Positions 41,339 through 47,958 of a DNA stretch of 64,000 bases are shown here, piece by piece. The position numbers and the translations under genes are program-made. Origin of the DNA: a virus (Duplodnaviria > Heunggongvirae > Uroviricota > Caudoviricetes). How positions within the stretch are numbered: the first letter of the stretch is position 1; each line of letters opens with the position of its first letter. The stretch is taken from the IMG/VR virus record IMGVR_UViG_3300033146_002139, positions 39,707 through 103,706 of that record; one strand, written 5' to 3'. The notes beneath the pieces are model-generated. The model was not told the origin of the DNA, made no database searches, and worked only from the letters and a program-made list of their open reading frames with translations.

Positions 41339-43999
41339 TTATATATTCCCTTTTATAAATTCAGTCATCATTCGTGGTGTTCCAGTGTCAAAGCCGACAA
41401 AATCCATCATTCCTGCATCAGAAGGGTCTGCTATAGTAAAATCATTTGAGACCATTCCTACAACTATGAGCTGTGCATTTGGTTTATTCATTTGATTTCT
41501 ATATCTTTTTAAGGCTTCAAATGGATGGATTTTTCCTGAGTATGTTTCCGAATCTGTATTACCTGTCCAATAAATAGAGCCTTTTCTTCTTGCGAGCCAA
41601 GTCTTGTTTGGAGTAGTAGGGCACCACACTATGCCATCATGTTCTATCCATTCCGCCTTGAATGGTCTATTATCCTTGTTAGTCGAGTTCTGTAATGGTG
41701 CAAATTGACTTCTTTTAAGAATCCCTATCTCCAAGTAGTTTTTATGATGAGCATTGTCTATTTTAGTATAAGACACCGAATGCCCTGCCAATATACATGC
41801 AAAAGCAAATGAATTCGAACGACTCTCTTCTTTTTGGCAAAACCTATTTTTTTTGAGGTGTCCATCGGCAATCATAGAGGTATGGATAAACAAATTAAGT
41901 TGTTCTTTCGTTAACTCCCTAAACCAATCAAGTTTAATGGATTTGTCGTTTTCCATTAGGTTTATAAAAGCACTAGAACCTTTCTTGTTTATATAAAAAA
42001 CAGTCATATCTTCTTTTGGACAATCTTCTCTCCATTCTCTATTGGCCTGTTCTTTGCTTAACGACTCTTTTGAGGCTCCGAGATAATCGTTTAGAGCCAA
42101 TCTGATTTTTTCCACATTCCTAGGATTTGCTTTGTGTGATTGAGAAAAATTAATTGATTTTGACGGAGATATGTAGCCTTCGGTATATATCCATGCTAGT
42201 AATTCTACAAATGAGTTTGACCATTTTTCTTTAACGGGGAGATTACTATCCTGAGCAGAACACTGAATATAATCAACTTTATTTAAAGTTTCTGATGTTT
42301 TCCATCTCCTTCCCCATGCTTCTTCGTTGGATTTATTTGTCGTTCTGTTTTTAACTGGCCATCTGTGATTTGCAGTTGACAAGGAAGAATGCCCCCTTCC
42401 TTCTATGTGTAACATTTTTCTTTTAGCCTTTGGAAATATATTTATTGAAGAAGCATTCTGCCATTCACCATTTCCATTTTCATGATTCAGCGTATACAGT
42501 TCTTCGTTTTCTTTTAAATTATCATACGATTTCCATCCTTCCGATGTTAATATCTCTGTTTCTTCGTCAACACAATACACTATAAATGTATCTATATCCA
42601 TTTTCTTCTCTATAGCATGCATCATTGGAAGTGCACAGTCTGTACCCCTAAAATCTAAACCTTTAACACTGTCTATTATTTTAGGCATATCCATCTTTGG
42701 AGAGATATTTAGTTCCGTTAATGCCGAAGCTCCCCATCCACCATTGCCACCATTACCGCCACCAGCGAAAGCTGTAACTACATAATTTCTCTCAGTTCTT
42801 GCAGTAACCATTGCCATTGCCGCAGAAGCTGTTCTTGGTGTTAATACAGACGACCCTGAAATATTGCTCCATGTCATAGACCCTGATACATCAAGTGCTA
42901 ACATAATATTTTTTCCGGTACTTTCAACATTGCCAAATGATAAGTAAAAAGCTTCATCCAATGCATCAAGTATTCTTTGATTGTGTTTCCATGTTAAGTT
43001 TCCTTTAACTCCACTGCCTGATGCATATACAAGTGTAGCATCTAATAGTTGTAATGGATGTACTCTTGATTTTTTAATTAACTCGGCATTAGTCAATTTA
43101 TCCTCTATAAAGGAAAGTGTTTTCATATCGCTATTAGATATCAATCCACTAGCTGTAAATTTTCCAAGACTTCTAATTATAGCTGTTAGACCTAGATTTT
43201 GTAAAAGAGCTTTTTGAACCTTAGCAGATGTTCTAAACTCTGTTCCAATCATTTCTTCTGTTAATCTGTATTCGTTGATAATAGAGATAATTTCTTTTTC
43301 ATTATCACACATCTTTGCAAGCTCAAATCCTTTTAAAAACTTAAAGTCCGCATCATGTTTTAATTCTTCGGAAATTTCTCCGGTAATAGCATATTTGTAT
43401 AATGCTGAATATCTATTGTCCAATGGAGTAATATGATTTAATCTTAAAAGGTCTTTATGATTCCATCCGTTTCTATTTCTATACTTTACCATTTGGAAAG
43501 TAAGTTTATCAAGTGGCTTATCATACCATTTTGCAAAAGCCGCTTTAACTGTAGTTCCCCATCCTCTTAAAGATTTTATCATAGAGGCAAACTCAAACAA
43601 GTGAGTTCCTATTCTTGCTACCTTGTGCAGGTTTTCTACAACATAAGCTTTTTCTTCATTTGTTCCATATGTCAATACTAAAGCCATAGCATATAATGCT
43701 TGGTCGTTTTTTCTAGCTCTACCATCTTTAGAAATTTCAATAGCTTTACTTGCTACAAGAACCCCTTGTCCATCTTTTATCATATTGATAATATGGTTGG
43801 AGTTTTCTTTTGTAAGTTTTTTTGGTGATGCATAATAGCTTCCACCTTCAGAACCTAGTATTAAAAATCTAAGTAATTTTTGTTCGTCTGTAACTCTAAA
43901 AACAAAACCATTTTCACTGTTTTTTACTTGTCCTGTTTTAGCTTTTGTTTTTTGATGTGTAGGTTTGTTTCTCGTTCCTAAATCTGCATAAATTGACAT
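41339..43999 (-). CDS. rsr: Ro60 (TROVE + vWA) RNA-binding protein, intein-containing precursor (547 aa after splicing)
   Basis: NSENGFVF, LRFLILGSEGGSYY, KYRNRNGWNHKDLLRL, SRVHP, vWA MIDAS LALDVSGSM, GTDCALPM and FIVY|TDSET. Confidence 0.95.
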   Translation of the reverse strand: MSIYADLGTRNKPTHQKTKAKTGQVKNSENGFVFRVTDEQKLLRFLILGSEGGSYYASPKKLTKENSNHIINMIKDGQGVLVASKAIEISKDGRARKNDQALYAMALVLTYGTNEEKAYVVENLHKVARIGTHLFEFASMIKSLRGWGTTVKAAFAKWYDKPLDKLTFQMVKYRNRNGWNHKDLLRLNHITPLDNRYSALYKYAITGEISEELKHDADFKFLKGFELAKMCDNEKEIISIINEYRLTEEMIGTEFRTSAKVQKALLQNLGLTAIIRSLGKFTASGLISNSDMKTLSFIEDKLTNAELIKKSRVHPLQLLDATLVYASGSGVKGNLTWKHNQRILDALDEAFYLSFGNVESTGKNIMLALDVSGSMTWSNISGSSVLTPRTASAAMAMVTARTERNYVVTAFAGGGNGGNGGWGASALTELNISPKMDMPKIIDSVKGLDFRGTDCALPMMHAIEKKMDIDTFIVYCVDEETEILTSEGWKSYDNLKENEELYTLNHENGNGEWQNASSINIFPKAKRKMLHIEGRGHSSLSTANHRWPVKNRTTNKSNEEAWGRRWKTSETLNKVDYIQCSAQDSNLPVKEKWSNSFVELLAWIYTEGYISPSKSINFSQSHKANPRNVEKIRLALNDYLGASKESLSKEQANREWREDCPKEDMTVFYINKKGSSAFINLMENDKSIKLDWFRELTKEQLNLFIHTSMIADGHLKKNRFCQKEESRSNSFAFACILAGHSVSYTKIDNAHHKNYLEIGILKRSQFAPLQNSTNKDNRPFKAEWIEHDGIVWCPTTPNKTWLARRKGSIYWTGNTDSETYSGKIHPFEALKRYRNQMNKPNAQLIVVGMVSNDFTIADPSDAGMMDFVGFDTGTPRMMTEFIKGNI
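41558..42574 (-). mobile_element. Intein with LAGLIDADG homing endonuclease, 339 aa
   Basis: Starts CVDEETEIL, has block B TANH, endonuclease motifs LLAWIYTEG and TSMIADG, and ends WTGN followed by Thr. Removing it restores FIVYTDSET. Confidence 0.92.
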
Positions 44000-44749: not shown

Positions 44750-44815
44750 AAGCTCAACAAGTAGATGCCATGGAATTTATTTTAGACAGATAACCCATTA
44801 GCTTCGGTTGAGCTT
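44750..44815 (-). ncRNA. Classical end-paired Y RNA candidate
   Basis: AAGCTCAAC-[C]-GAA-GCTAATGG-GTTATC...CCATGGC-[ATCTA]-CTT-GTTGAGCTT: 9-bp terminal stem, bulged C and opposite-strand bulge. Exact ends are uncertain. Confidence 0.75.
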
Positions 44816-44837
44816 TTATATTATTTATTAGTAGTAA

Positions 44838-44909
44838 TAGACCCACAAGGAATCGAACCTCGATTAATTGCACCAAAAGCAATTGTGCTAACCATTACAC
44901 TACAGGTCT
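44838..44909 (-). tRNA. tRNA-Gln(TTG)
   Basis: Cloverleaf with anticodon arm ATTGC-TTTTGGT-GCAAT and T loop TTCGATT; no encoded CCA. Confidence 0.9.
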
Positions 44910-44914
44910 GTTTG

Positions 44915-44999
44915 TGCACTCAGAGGGATTCGAACCCTCATTTCCTTTCAGAAGCCAGCTTCTAAGGCTGGTGCGTCTGCCCAGTTCCGCCACGAGTAC
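44915..44999 (-). tRNA. tRNA-Leu(TAG)
   Basis: CCAGC-CTTAGAA-GCTGG, long variable arm, T loop TTCGAAT. Confidence 0.92.
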
Positions 45000-45020
45000 A
45001 TATGTTAAATTGTTTTTTCC

Positions 45021-45106
45021 TCAGTGCAGTACGGACTTCCACCGTTAGCTCTTATAGTTAGTTTCCGGCTTTAACTATAAGTTCACCCCTGAACATTTCG
45101 AGTGTT
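45021..45106 (-). ncRNA. Unidentified structured element between tRNA-Pro and tRNA-Leu
   Basis: Three hairpins, including a perfect 10-bp stem CTTATAGTTA/TAACTATAAG and ACGG-TGGAAGT-CCGT. Confidence 0.35.
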
Positions 45107-45220
45107 AAGTATTGGCTATCTTTATTTTATTGTTCAGTGTTTAAAATAGCAAAACCACGATATACTCTTTTTTATCTTCGATGCATCTAGGATAAAGGAT
45201 AAATATAAAAACCCTTATAG

Positions 45221-45294
45221 TCAGGATAGCTGGACTCGAACCAGCGTGACCTCCGCCCCAAACGGAGTGAGACAACCAACTGCTCTATATCCTG
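45221..45294 (-). tRNA. tRNA-Pro(TGG)
   Basis: Acceptor CAGGATA/TATCCTG, CTCCG-TTTGGGG-CGGAG, T loop TTCGAGT. Confidence 0.92.
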
Positions 45295-45299
45295 GTATT

Positions 45300-45785
45300 T
45301 TAATACTTCAGTATTCCTACATGAAACTCTTTGTGGTGAGTCGGACATAATACATCAAGATTTTTAATGTCATTATTCTTTCTATCGCAATCTCTATGGT
45401 GAACTTGAAGAACTTTGACTACAGCATATCCACATATTGAACACTTCTTGTTGTAAAACTCTAAAGCCTTTCTTCTATAAGACCATTTTCCACCTTTATA
45501 ATTCGGATGATTAATTCCTGTCCTATAGTGCTTATTATTAAAAGATGCTGAACAACTCCTACTACAAAAAAATCTATTGGACTTGCTGTTTTTAGCCATA
45601 GAGCTCGTTACATACACATCCTTTCCACAATGACTACATTTTTTATCGTTTCCCATTTTCTTTGAATCAAGGTTACACTTTGTACTGCAAAAGTATTTAT
45701 AATTTTGTTTTTTATAGTATTTTACTATTTTTGCTTCTTTCTCAAAGACTGCATTACAATGAGAACAACTGACTTTTGTTTTCAT
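45300..45785 (-). CDS. HNH endonuclease with zinc-finger repeats
   Basis: CSHC and FCS..C repeats; CSICG...LQVHHRDCDRKNNDIKNLDVLCPTHH. Confidence 0.88.
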   Translation of the reverse strand: MKTKVSCSHCNAVFEKEAKIVKYYKKQNYKYFCSTKCNLDSKKMGNDKKCSHCGKDVYVTSSMAKNSKSNRFFCSRSCSASFNNKHYRTGINHPNYKGGKWSYRRKALEFYNKKCSICGYAVVKVLQVHHRDCDRKNNDIKNLDVLCPTHHKEFHVGILKY

Positions 45786-45798
45786 AAATTCCTTATGT

Positions 45799-45840
45799 CC
45801 TCGCCCAAACGAGGAGGCTTACCAATTAGCCCACCACCAG
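45799..45840 (-). pseudogene. 5' half of a second tRNA-Pro (truncated)
   Basis: CTGGTGG-TG-GGCT-AATTGGTA-AGCC-T-CCTCG-TTTGGG-CGAGG, followed by the RBS and ATG of the HNH gene. The T arm and 3' acceptor strand are absent. Confidence 0.7.
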
Positions 45841-45847
45841 GTATTTG

Positions 45848-45930
45848 CAGAAGATAAGAGACTCGAACTCCCAAGTCATTTCTGACGACAGTTTAGCAAA
45901 CTGCTTCCTTACCAATTAGGGTAATCTTCT
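45848..45930 (-). tRNA. tRNA-Ser(GCT)
   Basis: Acceptor AGAAGAT/ATCTTCT, GCAGT-TTGCTAA-ACTGT, long variable arm. Confidence 0.9.
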
Positions 45931-46000: not shown

Positions 46001-46204
46001 CTATGCTTTCTTCGATGGTAAAATCTTATACATTCCTGTACCACAATCAGGACATTTTCCTTTCATTGCAGGTCTGCCATTTTTCATAACAACCTCTTCT
46101 GTTTCGCTCATAATCTTTTTGGCTTTGCATTTAACACAATAGCCTTCTTTAGGGTCTTTTACTTCACTCATTTTCATTTCCTCATTTTGTTTTTGGTTTG
46201 ACAT
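46001..46204 (-). CDS. DUF5679-like zinc-ribbon protein
   Basis: GYCVKCK...MKNGRPAMKGKCPDCGTGMYKI; the real start may be the internal MSEVK. Confidence 0.75.
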   Translation of the reverse strand: MSNQKQNEEMKMSEVKDPKEGYCVKCKAKKIMSETEEVVMKNGRPAMKGKCPDCGTGMYKILPSKKA

Positions 46205-46230: not shown

Positions 46231-46351
46231 CTTGGATGACGAGATTCGAACTCGCATCACTCTATTAGAATTAGATAACGATTTTCATTCGGCTTGTGAA
46301 AGCAATAGTTAAAAATCGGGTTTAGTGTTCTACCAATTAAACTACATCCAA
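46231..46351 (-). ncRNA. tRNA-scaffold Y RNA candidate 1
   Basis: Acceptor TTGGATG/CATCCAA, D arm and T loop TTCGAAT. The anticodon arm is replaced by CGATTTTTA-[ACTA]-TT-GCTT-TCAC-AAGC-[C]-GAA-TGAAAATCG-TTATC. Confidence 0.8.
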
Positions 46352-46368
46352 GTATTTTTAATAGTTGT

Positions 46369-46492
46369 ACAAGAGAGAGGGACTCGAACCCCCGACCGCC
46401 TTATTAACTGTAAGATAAAGAATTTCATTCGGTCCGTGAAGACAAATAGTTGAAATTCGTTTTAGTGCTCTAACCATCTGAGCTACCTCTTG
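46369..46492 (-). ncRNA. tRNA-scaffold Y RNA candidate 2
   Basis: Acceptor CAAGAGG/TCTCTTG, GCTC/GAGC D stem, T loop TTCGAGT. Insert GAATTTCA-[ACTA]-TTT-GTC-TTCACG-GAC-[C]-GAA-TGAAATTC-TTTATC. Confidence 0.82.
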
Positions 46493-46501
46493 TACTTTGT
46501 G

Positions 46502-46646
46502 CCGAGAAGGCAGGAATTGAACCTGCGACACGTAATTCCGATAACCAATTACTCCGGCTTAAAAACTAATCTTGTAGGATTACGACATTTAAACGAATAA
46601 TGTAATTGAATTTATATTAATGCTCTACCAACTGAGCTACTTCTCG
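46502..46646 (-). ncRNA. tRNA-scaffold Y RNA candidate 3
   Basis: Acceptor CGAGAAG/CTTCTCG, T loop TTCAATT. Insert CAATTAC-[ATTA]-TTC-GTTTAAA...TTTAAGC-[C]-GGA-GTAATTG-GTTATC. Confidence 0.8.
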
Positions 46647-46974: not shown

Positions 46975-47215
46975 TTTTTGCCTATCAAAGATTAAATTGT
47001 GATTTGCTATTACTAAGAGTCATGCTCTACCACTGAGCTATTCCGGGATATTTTCTTATGCTTCTTAGACCCGGAAATTGGATTTGAACCAACGACACAA
47101 ACTTAATTTTTATCACATGCTTAGACTTTTTACGGCTACTATTCGGCGATACACTTACACTCAATATAATACTGAATAGCTACTCCACTCATAAGGGAAT
47201 AACTAGGATGACAGA
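46975..47215 (-). ncRNA. Circularly permuted tRNA-like RNA (YrlA-type Y RNA candidate); ends uncertain
   Basis: The order is T arm (GTTGG-TTCAAAT-CCAAT), then acceptor TTCCGGG...CCCGGAA closed by a loop, then D arm (GCTC-AGTGGTA-GAGC). GCCGAATAG lies upstream at 47139-47147. Confidence 0.7.
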
Positions 47216-47220
47216 TAAAA

Positions 47221-47958
47221 CTAACCGAAAATATGTGAAATTATATCTTTACCAACAAAAGAGTCTACAGCGACACATTCATTCGCTCTACTTCTAGCCG
47301 ATTTAATGTCGTTCAAAAGAGCATCTATCTTATTCAAGATTTCAGCTTTTTTTGCAGAATTAACCATACCTGTTTTATGCACGGTATTATAATATCCAAC
47401 CTGCTTAGTTGTTGAGACTTCTTTTATTTGAGCCTTATGCTCTTTAGTCGCCTTGTCTACAACAATAAAGTCTCTTTCTGTTTCTGTTCTATAGACAGGG
47501 ACAGGAGCTGCTTTAAAAGTAAACTTCCTTTCGTCTGCATTGGATTCCCATAATTGAGCAGAATCATATACTGGTATTACGATGGCAACTTCTCTAATTT
47601 TTTTAACTTCTTTTTCTAGGGCTAACAATGCTGTGGCGGATAAAGAGATAGTTTTATCTCCTAGTGTTAATTCTGCTCTAGCATTTCCGGAGCTATTAGT
47701 TTCTTCTTTAGTAATAACGATGTTTATTGCTTTTGCAATAGCCTTTCCGGTGTACTCTAGTCTCTCAGGAACAGTGGTTATTATTTCTTTCCCATCCGGC
47801 GGAATAACAGTTGTATCTTCCACAAGAGTGTGGTATGTTTTACTAAAACCTTGAAAAGGACTTTGTTTTCCAAAAAGACCTCTAGTTTCTGATACGATAT
47901 CTTCAGTTTGTTTACTAACGCCAGGTAATGATGCTAGTACTTCATGTAGTTTTCCCAT
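47221..47958 (-). CDS. Conserved ~245-aa protein (recalled as DUF7873-like)
   Basis: MGKLHEVLA, FQGFSKTY..L.ED, LLALEKEV, AT.EHKAQ, VGYY and ARSRAN match a family I recognise but cannot verify here. Confidence 0.6.
   Translation of the reverse strand: MGKLHEVLASLPGVSKQTEDIVSETRGLFGKQSPFQGFSKTYHTLVEDTTVIPPDGKEIITTVPERLEYTGKAIAKAINIVITKEETNSSGNARAELTLGDKTISLSATALLALEKEVKKIREVAIVIPVYDSAQLWESNADERKFTFKAAPVPVYRTETERDFIVVDKATKEHKAQIKEVSTTKQVGYYNTVHKTGMVNSAKKAEILNKIDALLNDIKSARSRANECVAVDSFVGKDIISHIFG

What the first reader, a model, noticed from the sequence alone, without database searches (positions are those of the whole stretch)
46231..46646. Three tandem tRNA/Y-RNA chimeras: canonical cloverleaf order with the Ro-binding helix replacing the anticodon arm
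Seen: each has a 7-bp acceptor stem (extended by 3 bp in the first two), T8-A9, a D arm and a T arm in normal tRNA order, but no anticodon loop. In its place is a 55-80 nt insert whose Ro-type helix is closed by a loop (TCAC, TTCACG, or a further TAATC/GATTA hairpin). Lengths are 121, 124 and 145 nt and CCA is not encoded. Established: in described YrlA RNAs the 5' and 3' ends form the Ro-binding stem and the acceptor stem is closed by a loop. Inference: these are the opposite circular permutation, with free acceptor ends that could be cut by RNase P, receive CCA and perhaps be aminoacylated. I do not recall this topology being described, but cannot exclude it.
Basis: partly seen in the sequence, partly recalled or inferred. 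Interest (0 to 1): 0.88.

Follow-up and report, generated by a model that had tools for sequence, protein, structure and literature searches.

The report
Phage Y RNAs wired in tRNA order
Three neighbouring small-RNA genes in a large phage are shaped like tRNAs that carry the docking hairpin for the phage's own Ro60 protein; the same layout, the reverse wiring of the known bacterial YrlA RNAs, sits beside Ro60 genes in many bacterial phyla, and I found no description of it in the papers I could search.

Summary
The three elements are real. Each has an open 7-bp acceptor stem, a D arm, a loop-closed Ro60-type bulged helix, and a T arm. No CCA is encoded.

One detail needs correcting. Copies 1 and 2 keep an anticodon-arm-like hairpin with a 7-nt loop, and the Ro module is inserted into its stem between positions 28 and 29. 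Only copy 3 has the module in place of the loop.

They belong to a widespread family:
- The same layout lies next to Ro60 in two other viral contigs and in at least 34 of 80 bacterial Ro60 loci.
- All helices and the tertiary 15:48 pair covary.
- A model built from bacterial copies alone scores the window's copies 71-97 bits, against 48 or less for the phage's real tRNAs.
- In five whole bacterial genomes, all 14 hits of 59 bits or more lie at the Ro60 locus.

Rfam calls these elements long "tRNAs". Its YrlA model does not reach threshold on them.

Best reading: these are YrlA-class Y RNAs in native tRNA order, probably not decoding tRNAs. Processing, CCA addition and Ro60 binding are inferred, not shown.

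I found no published description in the papers I could search. This scan had already noted the same topology on other DNA.

The parts
46502..46646 (-). Copy 3 (145 nt). Acceptor 46640-46646 / 46503-46509; D arm 46622-46637; contiguous anticodon-type stem 46616-46620 / 46532-46536 (4 of 5 pairs) enclosing the Y module; T arm 46510-46526; discriminator G at 46502.
   Evidence: Rfam tRNA 46.1 bits with a 79-nt insertion. R1, which was not trained on it, gives 61.2 bits. The bacteria-only model R2 gives 71.3 bits. Anatomy.
46369..46492 (-). Copy 2 (124 nt). Acceptor 46486-46492 / 46370-46376, plus 3 extra pairs outside; D arm 46467-46483; T arm 46377-46393; discriminator U.
   Evidence: R2 gives 77.5 bits. 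Own acceptor 7/7 and extension of 3 bp. Anatomy.
46231..46351 (-). Copy 1 (121 nt). Acceptor 46345-46351 / 46232-46238, plus 3 extra pairs outside; D arm 46327-46342; T arm 46239-46255; discriminator G.
   Evidence: Rfam tRNA 44.7 bits with a 62-nt insertion. R2 gives 96.9 bits. Anatomy.
46279..46318 (-). Y (Ro60-binding type) module of copy 1. Upper stem P2 CGAUUUU/AAAAUCG; internal loop UAACUAUU; P1 GCUU/AAGC closed by UCAC; motif GCCGAAUG, an exact match to GNCGAAN0-1G. It is followed by UUAU (46275-46278), the YUAY of YrlA.
   Evidence: P1 and P2 covary in 58 sequences. The motif is defined in PMC4201824.
46420..46458 (-). Y module of copy 2. P2 GAAUUUC/GAAAUUC; internal loop AACUAUUU; P1 GUCU/GGAC closed by UCAC; motif GGACCGAAUG (compare vertebrate GGUCCGA). 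It is followed by UUUAUC.
46545..46609 (-). Y module of copy 3. P2 UCAAUUAC/GUAAUUGG; P1 GUUUAAA/UUUAAGC, capped by an extra UAAUC/GAUUA hairpin (46567-46582); motif GCCGGAG. It is followed by UUAUC.
46260..46274 (-). Anticodon-arm-like hairpin of copy 1: 29-31 CUA, loop AUUCUAA (U33, A37, 'UCU'), 39-43 UAGAG. C27-U28 at 46324-46325 pair with A42-G43 across the inserted Y module.
   Evidence: Family-wide covariation at 27:43 and 28:42.
46399..46413 (-). Anticodon-arm-like hairpin of copy 2: 29-31 UUA, loop CAGUUAA ('GUU', but with A33, the only non-U33 among 28 family loops), 39-43 UAAGG. C27-U28 at 46464-46465.
46994..47118 (-). Context: a tRNA-like element in the known YrlA order (T arm, then an acceptor stem closed by a 24-nt loop, then the D arm). 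It lies just upstream of the array and directly downstream of a DUF7873 gene.
   Evidence: Rfam YrlA 29.7 bits, below the gathering score of 69. Fold.
44750..44816 (-). Context: a small Y-RNA-like hairpin with no tRNA domain.
   Evidence: Rfam RF01656 (nematode ceN72-3/ceN74-2 sRNAs; that these are stem-bulge Y-RNA homologues is my own knowledge) gives 28.3 bits, below the gathering score of 38.
41339..43999 (-). Ro60/Rsr homologue, 886 aa, carrying an inserted segment of about 340 aa. It is on the same strand, 2.2 kb downstream of copy 1.
   Evidence: Pfam TROVE 3.8e-28 and vWA_Ro60 5.7e-54. Homologues.
44838..45930 (-). Four ordinary tRNA genes lying between the array and Ro60: Gln 44838-44909, Leu 44914-44999, Pro 45220-45294, Ser 45847-45930.
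   Evidence: ARAGORN. Rfam tRNA.

Best explanation
The three elements are genes for YrlA-class Y RNAs, the non-coding RNA partners of Ro60, written in native tRNA order.

Shown here:
- Each folds as a tRNA-like body: an open acceptor stem, a D arm, a T arm, and U8 and the 15:48 tertiary pair.
- From the anticodon stem a hairpin protrudes that carries the conserved bulged Ro60-binding helix (P2, internal loop, P1, GNCG(A/G)A motif, then UUAUC).
- In known YrlA the same parts are joined the other way round: the Ro helix is made by the RNA's two ends and the acceptor stem is closed by a loop.

Inferred:
- The array is transcribed with the surrounding phage tRNA cluster.
- Each unit is released by the host's tRNA-processing enzymes, RNase P at the 5' end and 3' trimming, probably followed by CCA addition.
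- The hairpin docks the phage Ro60.
- The tRNA-shaped body serves as the effector handle, as proposed for YrlA. It could tether or gate Ro60 towards an exoribonuclease such as PNPase, or towards a tRNA-binding factor, during infection.
- They most likely do not decode.
For: Recurrence:
- The same order lies next to Ro60 in metagenomic contig L047 (two copies directly downstream of its long-form Ro60).
- It lies in viral contig L011 (two copies directly upstream of Ro60).
- It lies in at least 34 of 80 bacterial Ro60 loci from many phyla, on the Ro60 strand, with 58 of 61 listed hits showing 7/7 pairs in their own acceptor stem.

Covariation on 58 sequences:
- 96.1% of cells are paired.
- 25 of 27 pairs show double changes.
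- The covariation score is 0.665, against 0.21 when shuffled and 0.15 or less when the partners are slid.

The tertiary 15:48 pair was not in the model. It is G:C or A:U in 51 of 56 sequences; shuffles give a mean of 27 and a maximum of 40. U8 is present in 58/58.

Membership: model R2 was built only from 43 bacterial copies. It scores the window's copies 96.9, 77.5 and 71.3 bits, against 48 or less for real tRNAs.

Linkage to Ro60 is not an artefact of how the loci were fetched. In five whole bacterial genomes of 4-9 Mb, all 14 hits of 59 bits or more lie at the Ro60 locus.

Ro motif: the family consensus is GGGCCGAAGG opposite CCUUGCC, followed by UUAUC or UUACC. This matches GNCGAAN0-1G and YUAY of YrlA (PMC4201824).

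Against decoding:
- Positions 34-36 vary freely on a nearly constant body, while U33, R37 and A38 are kept.
- 6 of 58 members lack the hairpin.
- Copy 2 has A33.
- Copy 3 has no such loop.
Against: - There are no expression, end-mapping or binding data for this phage.
- Energy folding alone does not single out the structure for copies 1 and 2. Their z-scores are -1.8 and -0.5, and the comparative structure is 9 kcal/mol above the MFE.
- The acceptor stems of copies 1 and 2 continue for 3 more pairs, which may hinder canonical RNase P and CCA maturation.
- The bacterial sequences used for R2 were themselves collected with a model seeded on copies 1 and 2.
- A DUF7873 gene, linked to tRNA-mimic RNAs by an earlier unverified note of this scan, lies 0.6 kb upstream.
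- Among 44 viral or phage-like Ro60 loci, only 2 besides this one carry strong members.
Confidence: 0.8

Rival explanations
1. They are intron-bearing tRNA genes. The Y-like module is cut out and the ends rejoined, for example by the phage's RtcB ligase, to give working tRNA-Arg(UCU) and tRNA-Asn(GUU).
For: - Removing the module from copies 1 and 2 restores a 5-bp anticodon stem with a 7-nt loop.
- ARAGORN lists no tRNA-Arg among the phage's tRNAs.
- Wang et al. 2018 raise processing of YrlA towards tRNA-like forms as a possibility.
Against: - The insertion site, 28/29 inside the stem's 5' strand, fits no intron class I know of: group I introns lie in the loop and bulge-helix-bulge introns need a splicing endonuclease.
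- Wang et al. [quoted passage not shown] It carries the Ro60 motif and is found only at Ro60 loci.
- The family's 'anticodons' vary on one constant body. They include GCU without a long variable arm and GUG without G-1.
- Copy 2 has A33, and copy 3 and 6 of 58 members lack the loop.
Confidence: 0.07
2. The array is a tandem run of ordinary acceptor-closed YrlA RNAs read in the wrong register. Each unit would be the T arm of one 'copy', then the spacer, then the D arm of the next.
For: - Rfam's YrlA model hits the copy 3/copy 2 junction (46433-46548) at 29.3 bits.
- The 3' acceptor strand of copy 3 can pair 6/7 with the 5' strand of copy 2.
Against: - That score is far below the gathering score of 69.
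- Each copy's own acceptor is 7/7, rising to 10 bp in two copies.
- The copy 2/copy 1 junction pairs only 5/7, three of those being G-U.
- P1 is closed by 4-6-nt loops.
- Across 58 sequences the own-ends acceptor covaries at all 7 pairs.
- Many members are solitary rather than in tandem.
Confidence: 0.03
3. They are tRNA mimics that work without Ro60, either with the neighbouring DUF7873 protein or as free decoys for host tRNA-targeting defence nucleases. Under this reading the Ro-like motif is incidental.
For: - A DUF7873 gene (47221-47958) is on the same strand nearby.
- The anticodon-like loops keep U33 and R37.
- Phage tRNAs are known counter-defences (PMC11555353).
Against: - DUF7873 is absent from every other locus carrying the family (tblastn).
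- In five whole genomes the family occurs only at Ro60 loci.
- The most conserved non-tRNA part is the Ro-type helix.
Confidence: 0.07
4. They are decaying tRNA pseudogenes disrupted by insertions.
For: - ARAGORN does not call them in standard mode.
- Copy 2 falls below Rfam's tRNA threshold.
Against: - Three paralogues keep all helices.
- Compensatory changes are seen across phyla.
- All three score strongly with an independent model.
Confidence: 0.02

Closest known systems
YrlA (Y RNA-like A; Rfam RF02553; Chen et al. 2014, PMC4201824; structure in Wang et al. 2018, 10.1101/312249)
   Same: - Encoded within 4 kb of Ro60 on the same strand.
- Has the Ro motif GNCGAAN0-1G on a bulged helix, followed by YUAY.
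- Has near-invariant tRNA-like D and T arms, U8-A9 and a covarying 15:48 pair.
- Has a hairpin before the T arm, which Chen et al. call 'V'.
   Different: - The connectivity is reversed. Here the RNA ends are at the acceptor stem and the Ro helix is closed by a loop.
- RF02553 does not reach threshold on these elements.
- The hairpin before the T arm has the signature of an anticodon loop and shares a split 5-bp stem with nucleotides 27-28.
Mycobacterium smegmatis YrlA after processing (PMC4201824)
   Same: Its 7-bp acceptor stem is opened by RNase P in vivo and the new 3' end gains CCA. The functional RNA therefore has open, tRNA-like acceptor ends, as these genes encode directly.
   Different: The mycobacterial RNA becomes two pieces held together by base pairing. 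Here a single chain would do the same because the Ro helix is loop-closed. Processing is not shown here.
Deinococcus radiodurans Yrn1 (PMC4201824)
   Same: It is a Y RNA with a T arm and partial D features, in which the arms come in D-then-T order relative to the 5' end.
   Different: In Yrn1 the Ro helix occupies the acceptor position and a closed hairpin occupies the anticodon position. Here the acceptor stem is a separate open helix and the Ro helix sits on the anticodon side.
Circularly permuted tRNA genes of red algae and an archaeon (Soma et al. 2007, as cited in 10.1101/312249)
   Same: They show that tRNA-shaped RNAs exist in both gene orders, and that gene order and mature ends can be uncoupled.
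   Different: Those are precursors of decoding tRNAs and are processed by a splicing endonuclease and ligase. Here both orders appear to be end products of a Ro60 partner RNA.

Membership tests
Y RNA (Ro60/Rsr partner RNA) | A conserved bulged helix carrying GNCGAAN0-1G (bacteria) or GGUCCGA (animals). | tested here: met
   Copy 1 has GCCGAAUG, an exact match. Copy 2 has GGACCGAAUG. Copy 3 has GCCGGAG. The family consensus is GGGCCGAAGG opposite CCUUGCC.
Y RNA (Ro60/Rsr partner RNA) | Encoded close to the Ro60 gene on the same strand. | tested here: met
   The array lies 2.2-2.6 kb upstream of Ro60 (41339-43999) on the minus strand. In five whole bacterial genomes, all 14 strong family hits lie at the Ro60 locus.
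Y RNA (Ro60/Rsr partner RNA) | Physically bound by Ro60. | not testable with these tools
   This needs co-immunoprecipitation or a gel-shift assay.
YrlA (Rfam RF02553) | Order 5' Ro strand, T arm, loop-closed acceptor stem, D arm, 3' Ro strand. | tested here: not met
   The order here is acceptor 5', D arm, loop-closed Ro helix, T arm, acceptor 3'.
YrlA (Rfam RF02553) | Score at or above the family's gathering threshold of 69 bits. | tested here: not met
   The only hits are out of register, at 29.3 and 16.7 bits. There was no RF02553 hit at gathering in 16 loci that carry the family.
YrlA (Rfam RF02553) | A tRNA-like D arm and T arm with a covarying Levitt pair and U8-A9. | tested here: met
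   15:48 is A:U in copy 1 and G:C in copies 2 and 3 (read from the D loops and variable regions). It is of this type in 51/56 across the family. U8 is present in 58/58.
Decoding tRNA | Cloverleaf with an uninterrupted 5-bp anticodon stem and a 7-nt loop with U33. | tested here: not met
   The stem is interrupted by a module of about 50 nt at 28/29 in copies 1 and 2. Copy 2 has A33. Copy 3 has no 7-nt loop. ARAGORN calls none of the three in standard mode.
Decoding tRNA | Acceptor stem, D arm and T arm recognised by a tRNA model. | tested here: met
   RF00005 gives 44.7 bits for copy 1 and 46.1 bits for copy 3, against a gathering score of 29. Copy 2 gets only tRNA-Sec at 19.6 bits.
Decoding tRNA | Aminoacylation and ribosomal decoding. 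| not testable with these tools
   This needs acid-gel or periodate assays and translation tests.

The most novel reading that the evidence does not exclude
The tRNA-order Y RNAs mature exactly like tRNAs, with an RNase P-cut 5' end and a CCA 3' end, and present a genuine anticodon-loop mimic with varied triplets within one array. They would act as Ro60-tethered baits or sensors for enzymes that attack or modify anticodon loops, such as host anticodon nucleases used in anti-phage defence. This would couple tRNA damage to Ro60-directed RNA decay or repair. Some members might even be charged with an amino acid.
Probability: 0.1. Interest if true: 0.9.

Novelty: new variant of a known kind. Interest (0 to 1): 0.66.

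Why it matters
Bacterial tRNA-like Y RNAs have so far been described as 'circularly permuted tRNAs with a closed acceptor stem', and their origin has been discussed as a fusion of two neighbouring tRNAs.

A widespread form in native tRNA order changes that picture in four ways:
- Many Ro60 loci that look devoid of YrlA actually carry Y RNAs, which current annotation either mislabels as long tRNAs or skips.
- One chain with open acceptor ends is what M. smegmatis reaches by cleaving its YrlA. A free, possibly CCA-tipped end may therefore matter for function.
- Tandem arrays of tRNA-order units, such as the one here, offer a simple duplication route to the permuted YrlA order. Both orders lie side by side in this window.
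- Two cultured, fully sequenced carriers, Limnoglobus roseus PX52 and Desulfonema magnum 4be13, make the questions directly testable.

Tried and rejected
- **Phage collection, blastn of the array and of 24 kb around it:** no match.
- **Exact-pattern scan of viral contigs with a motif shared by copies 1 and 2:** no match.
- **The one metagenome scan:** it was seeded on the inserted segment of Ro60 and mostly returned that segment in other proteins. Only L049-L051 were Ro60 loci, and none had a strong family member.
- **Public sequencing runs:** none was listed, and no RNA holder was listed.
- **ARAGORN with introns allowed:** it calls copy 1 'tRNA-Pyl(CUA), 44-nt intron' and fuses copies 2 and 3 into one 'tRNA-Val'. 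I rejected both as artefacts, because they ignore the conserved helices.
- **Energy-only folding:** it recovers the acceptor, T and Y helices but not the junction, and is not better than shuffles for copy 2.
- **Promoter and terminator consensus scans:** no more sites than expected by chance, or sites that are merely T arms.
- **Two review papers on bacterial Y RNAs (PMC10870794, PMC6047535):** not held, so I could not read them.
- **The inserted Ro60 segment:** no Pfam or PDB sequence match.
- **Long tRNA-like elements of Streptomyces phages:** first taken as family members, then set aside. Their insert is different and they score only 25-43 bits.

Full report
**What is there.**
On the minus strand, three elements lie head to tail at 46646-46502, 46492-46369 and 46351-46231. 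They are 145, 124 and 121 nt long, with gaps of 9 and 17 nt.

- Rfam's tRNA model matches the first and third end to end (46.1 and 44.7 bits), with 79- and 62-nt insertions on the anticodon side.
- The middle one falls below threshold.
- ARAGORN calls none of them, but it does call four ordinary tRNAs just downstream.
- The genome is a complete 167.7-kb phage record with terminal repeats, 33% G+C and 11 ordinary tRNAs.
- A Ro60 homologue (TROVE plus vWA_Ro60) lies 2.2 kb downstream on the same strand.

**Anatomy.**
Each copy has these parts:
- a perfect 7-bp acceptor stem made from its own two ends;
- U8-A9, a D arm and a T arm;
- a module consisting of an upper stem (P2), an internal loop (AACUAUU-like), and a lower stem (P1) closed by a short loop, or by an extra hairpin in copy 3;
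- the motif GCCGAAUG (copy 1), GGACCGAAUG (copy 2) or GCCGGAG (copy 3);
- the return strand of P2, followed by UUAUC.

The motif and the UUAUC correspond to GNCGAAN0-1G and YUAY, which Chen et al. 2014 (PMC4201824) define for YrlA and relate to the vertebrate GGUCCGA. The module is therefore a Y-RNA Ro-binding helix whose two strands come in the opposite order to a normal Y RNA and are joined by a loop.

**Correction to the observation.**
Copies 1 and 2 are not without an anticodon loop. After UUAUC comes a hairpin with a 7-nt loop, AUUCUAA in copy 1 and CAGUUAA in copy 2.
- Its 3' strand (positions 39-43) pairs partly with the three nucleotides just before the loop (29-31).
- It pairs partly with the two nucleotides that follow the D arm (27-28).
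- The Y module is thus an insertion between positions 28 and 29 of an otherwise normal 5-bp anticodon stem.
- In copy 3 a contiguous stem (4 of 5 pairs) encloses the module and no such loop remains.

Chen et al. noted the same hairpin in many YrlA RNAs and named it 'V'.

**Relatives.**
No close relative of the phage is in the phage collection. The closest Ro60 proteins share 44-47% identity and the same long form.
- One of them lies on an 11-kb metagenomic contig (L047). It is followed directly by two tandem elements of the same layout (tRNA model 53.1 and 39.8 bits with 60- and 62-nt insertions), with visible compensatory changes relative to copy 1.
- I built model R1 from copies 1 and 2 and one L047 element. 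It found two more copies directly upstream of Ro60 in a 164.5-kb viral contig, L011.
- R1 also found full-length hits of 103-203 nt in at least 34 of 80 bacterial Ro60 loci fetched with an alignment of intein-free Ro60 proteins.
- The bacterial carriers include Limnoglobus roseus, Desulfonema magnum, Chloroflexota, Armatimonadota, Myxococcota, Verrucomicrobiota, a cyanobacterial MAG and Gemmatimonadota.
- The hits lie on the Ro60 strand, mostly upstream and often in tandem. Of the 61 listed, 58 have 7/7 pairs between their own ends.

**Structure tests.**
On 58 aligned members:
- 96.1% of cells are paired and 25 of 27 pairs carry double changes.
- The covariation score is 0.665, against 0.21 in shuffles and 0.15 or less with slid partners.
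- The acceptor helix is paired in 99.3% of cells and varies at all 7 pairs.
- The closing helix P1 is paired in 99.6% of cells.

This alignment was fitted to the model, so it leans towards it. Two features that were not in the model give independent support:
- The tertiary 15:48 pair is G:C (29) or A:U (22) in 51 of 56 sequences. Shuffles give a mean of 27 and a maximum of 40 in 2000.
- The split anticodon stem is perfect in 30 of 58 members, against a shuffled mean of 8.7 and a maximum of 17. Position 27:43 reads C-G 18, G-C 8 and U-A 4.

The 28 seven-nucleotide loops keep Y32 (25), U33 (27), R37 (28) and A38 (25), while positions 34-36 vary freely.

**Membership and linkage.**
Model R2 was built only from 43 bacterial members.
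- It scores the window's copies 96.9, 77.5 and 71.3 bits. The phage's real tRNAs score 48 or less.
- The bacterial members were collected with R1, so this test is not fully independent.
- In five whole bacterial genomes of 4-9 Mb, all 14 hits of 59 bits or more lie at the Ro60 locus. Every other hit is a 71-75-nt tRNA at 55 bits or less.
- Rfam at its own thresholds labels these elements as tRNA (40-59 bits, 105-140 nt) and gives no YrlA hit in 16 such loci.
- DUF7873, whose gene lies just upstream of the array here, is absent from all other loci with the family.

**Ends.**
- CCA is not encoded here, but neither is it in the phage's real tRNA genes.
- In the family, CCA is encoded in 7 of 58 members: 2 directly after position 73 and 5 after one more nucleotide. 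Real tRNA genes of the same loci have it in 36 of 196.
- In Desulfonema magnum, all five neighbouring tRNAs and the element carry CCA.
- Position -1 can pair with position 73 in 45 of 58 members, against 30 of 196 real tRNAs. An eighth acceptor pair is therefore a family trait. Copies 1 and 2 extend it to 10 bp.
- How this affects RNase P cutting is open.

**The other register.**
In any tandem array, the T arm of one unit followed by the D arm of the next imitates YrlA. Chen et al. discarded such hits at tandem tRNA genes for that reason.
- Here the YrlA model scores the copy 3/copy 2 junction 29.3 bits, and the neighbouring acceptor strands can pair 6/7.
- Each unit's own stem is better, and the family evidence favours the tRNA order.
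- This ambiguity, together with a true YrlA-order element at 46994-47118, shows how easily one order could turn into the other by duplication.

**Literature.**
- Chen et al. 2014 and Wang et al. 2018 describe YrlA as acceptor-closed, and Yrn1 with the Ro helix at the acceptor position.
- M. smegmatis YrlA is cut by RNase P and gains CCA.
- Full-text searches found no paper on a tRNA-order Y RNA. Two reviews were not available.
- Notes of this scan report the same topology on other DNA: cyanobacteria, crAss-like and other phages, and a giant virus. These are unverified AI notes. My bacterial survey independently agrees with them.

**Verdict.**
The finding is real. These are phage members of a widespread, apparently undescribed tRNA-order variant of YrlA-class Y RNAs. 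They are probably Ro60 partners and probably not decoders. Expression, processing and binding remain to be shown.

Noticed in passing
window 41339-43999 (-), protein residues about 476-815: The Ro60 protein is 886 aa, against about 540 aa in most homologues. The extra ~340 aa sit inside the vWA domain and have intein-like borders (VY|C...GN|T). Four other long-form Ro60s share the insert, and similar segments occur in about 70 metagenomic loci in other contexts. It has no Pfam or PDB sequence match.
   Followed up: partly
window 46994-47118 (-), next to DUF7873 gene 47221-47958 (-): A tRNA-like element in the known YrlA order (T arm, loop-closed acceptor, D arm; YrlA model 29.7 bits) lies between a DUF7873 gene and the tRNA-order array. 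Both gene orders therefore coexist in one locus.
   Followed up: partly
G000:C1:133852-133961 (+), outside the window: A fourth, weaker tRNA-order-like element (R2 38.7 bits) has a 7-bp acceptor stem, a T arm and a GGAUUAUC motif. It lies 48 kb from the Ro60 gene.
   Followed up: partly
L126:12241-12357 (Streptomyces phage LilMartin MT684590.1, about 85092-85208), and L017-L036 at about +5 kb from Ro60: Unannotated tRNA-like elements of 109-128 nt, with open acceptor ends and a different insert containing GUCGAAAG, lie in gaps of the tRNA arrays of cultured Streptomyces phages that encode Ro-like proteins. They score only 25-43 bits with my models.
   Followed up: partly
L146:1555-1626 and 2390-2459, L134:2414-2482, L178:2850-2943; window 44750-44816: Rfam's nematode ceN72-3/ceN74-2 model (stem-bulge RNAs, Y-RNA homologues by my own knowledge) scores above its gathering threshold on small hairpins next to bacterial Ro60 genes. 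It scores 28.3 bits on a small Y-like hairpin in this window.
   Followed up: no
bacterial loci L167, L194, L164, L201, L188, L187, L182: Many bacterial Ro60 loci with tRNA-order Y RNAs are embedded in dense tRNA arrays of 13-20 tRNA genes within 7.6 kb. This resembles the phage arrangement.
   Followed up: no
58 family members (alignment A7) and their flanks: Position -1 can pair with position 73 in 78% of family members, against 15% of genuine tRNAs in the same loci. Five members read 'eighth pair, one nucleotide, then CCA'.
   Followed up: partly
window 45300-45785 (-) and 46001-46204 (-): Two small protein genes are interleaved with the tRNA and Y RNA genes. One has weak, sub-threshold Pfam matches to HNH endonuclease and zinc-ribbon models. 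The other is a DUF5679 protein.
   Followed up: no
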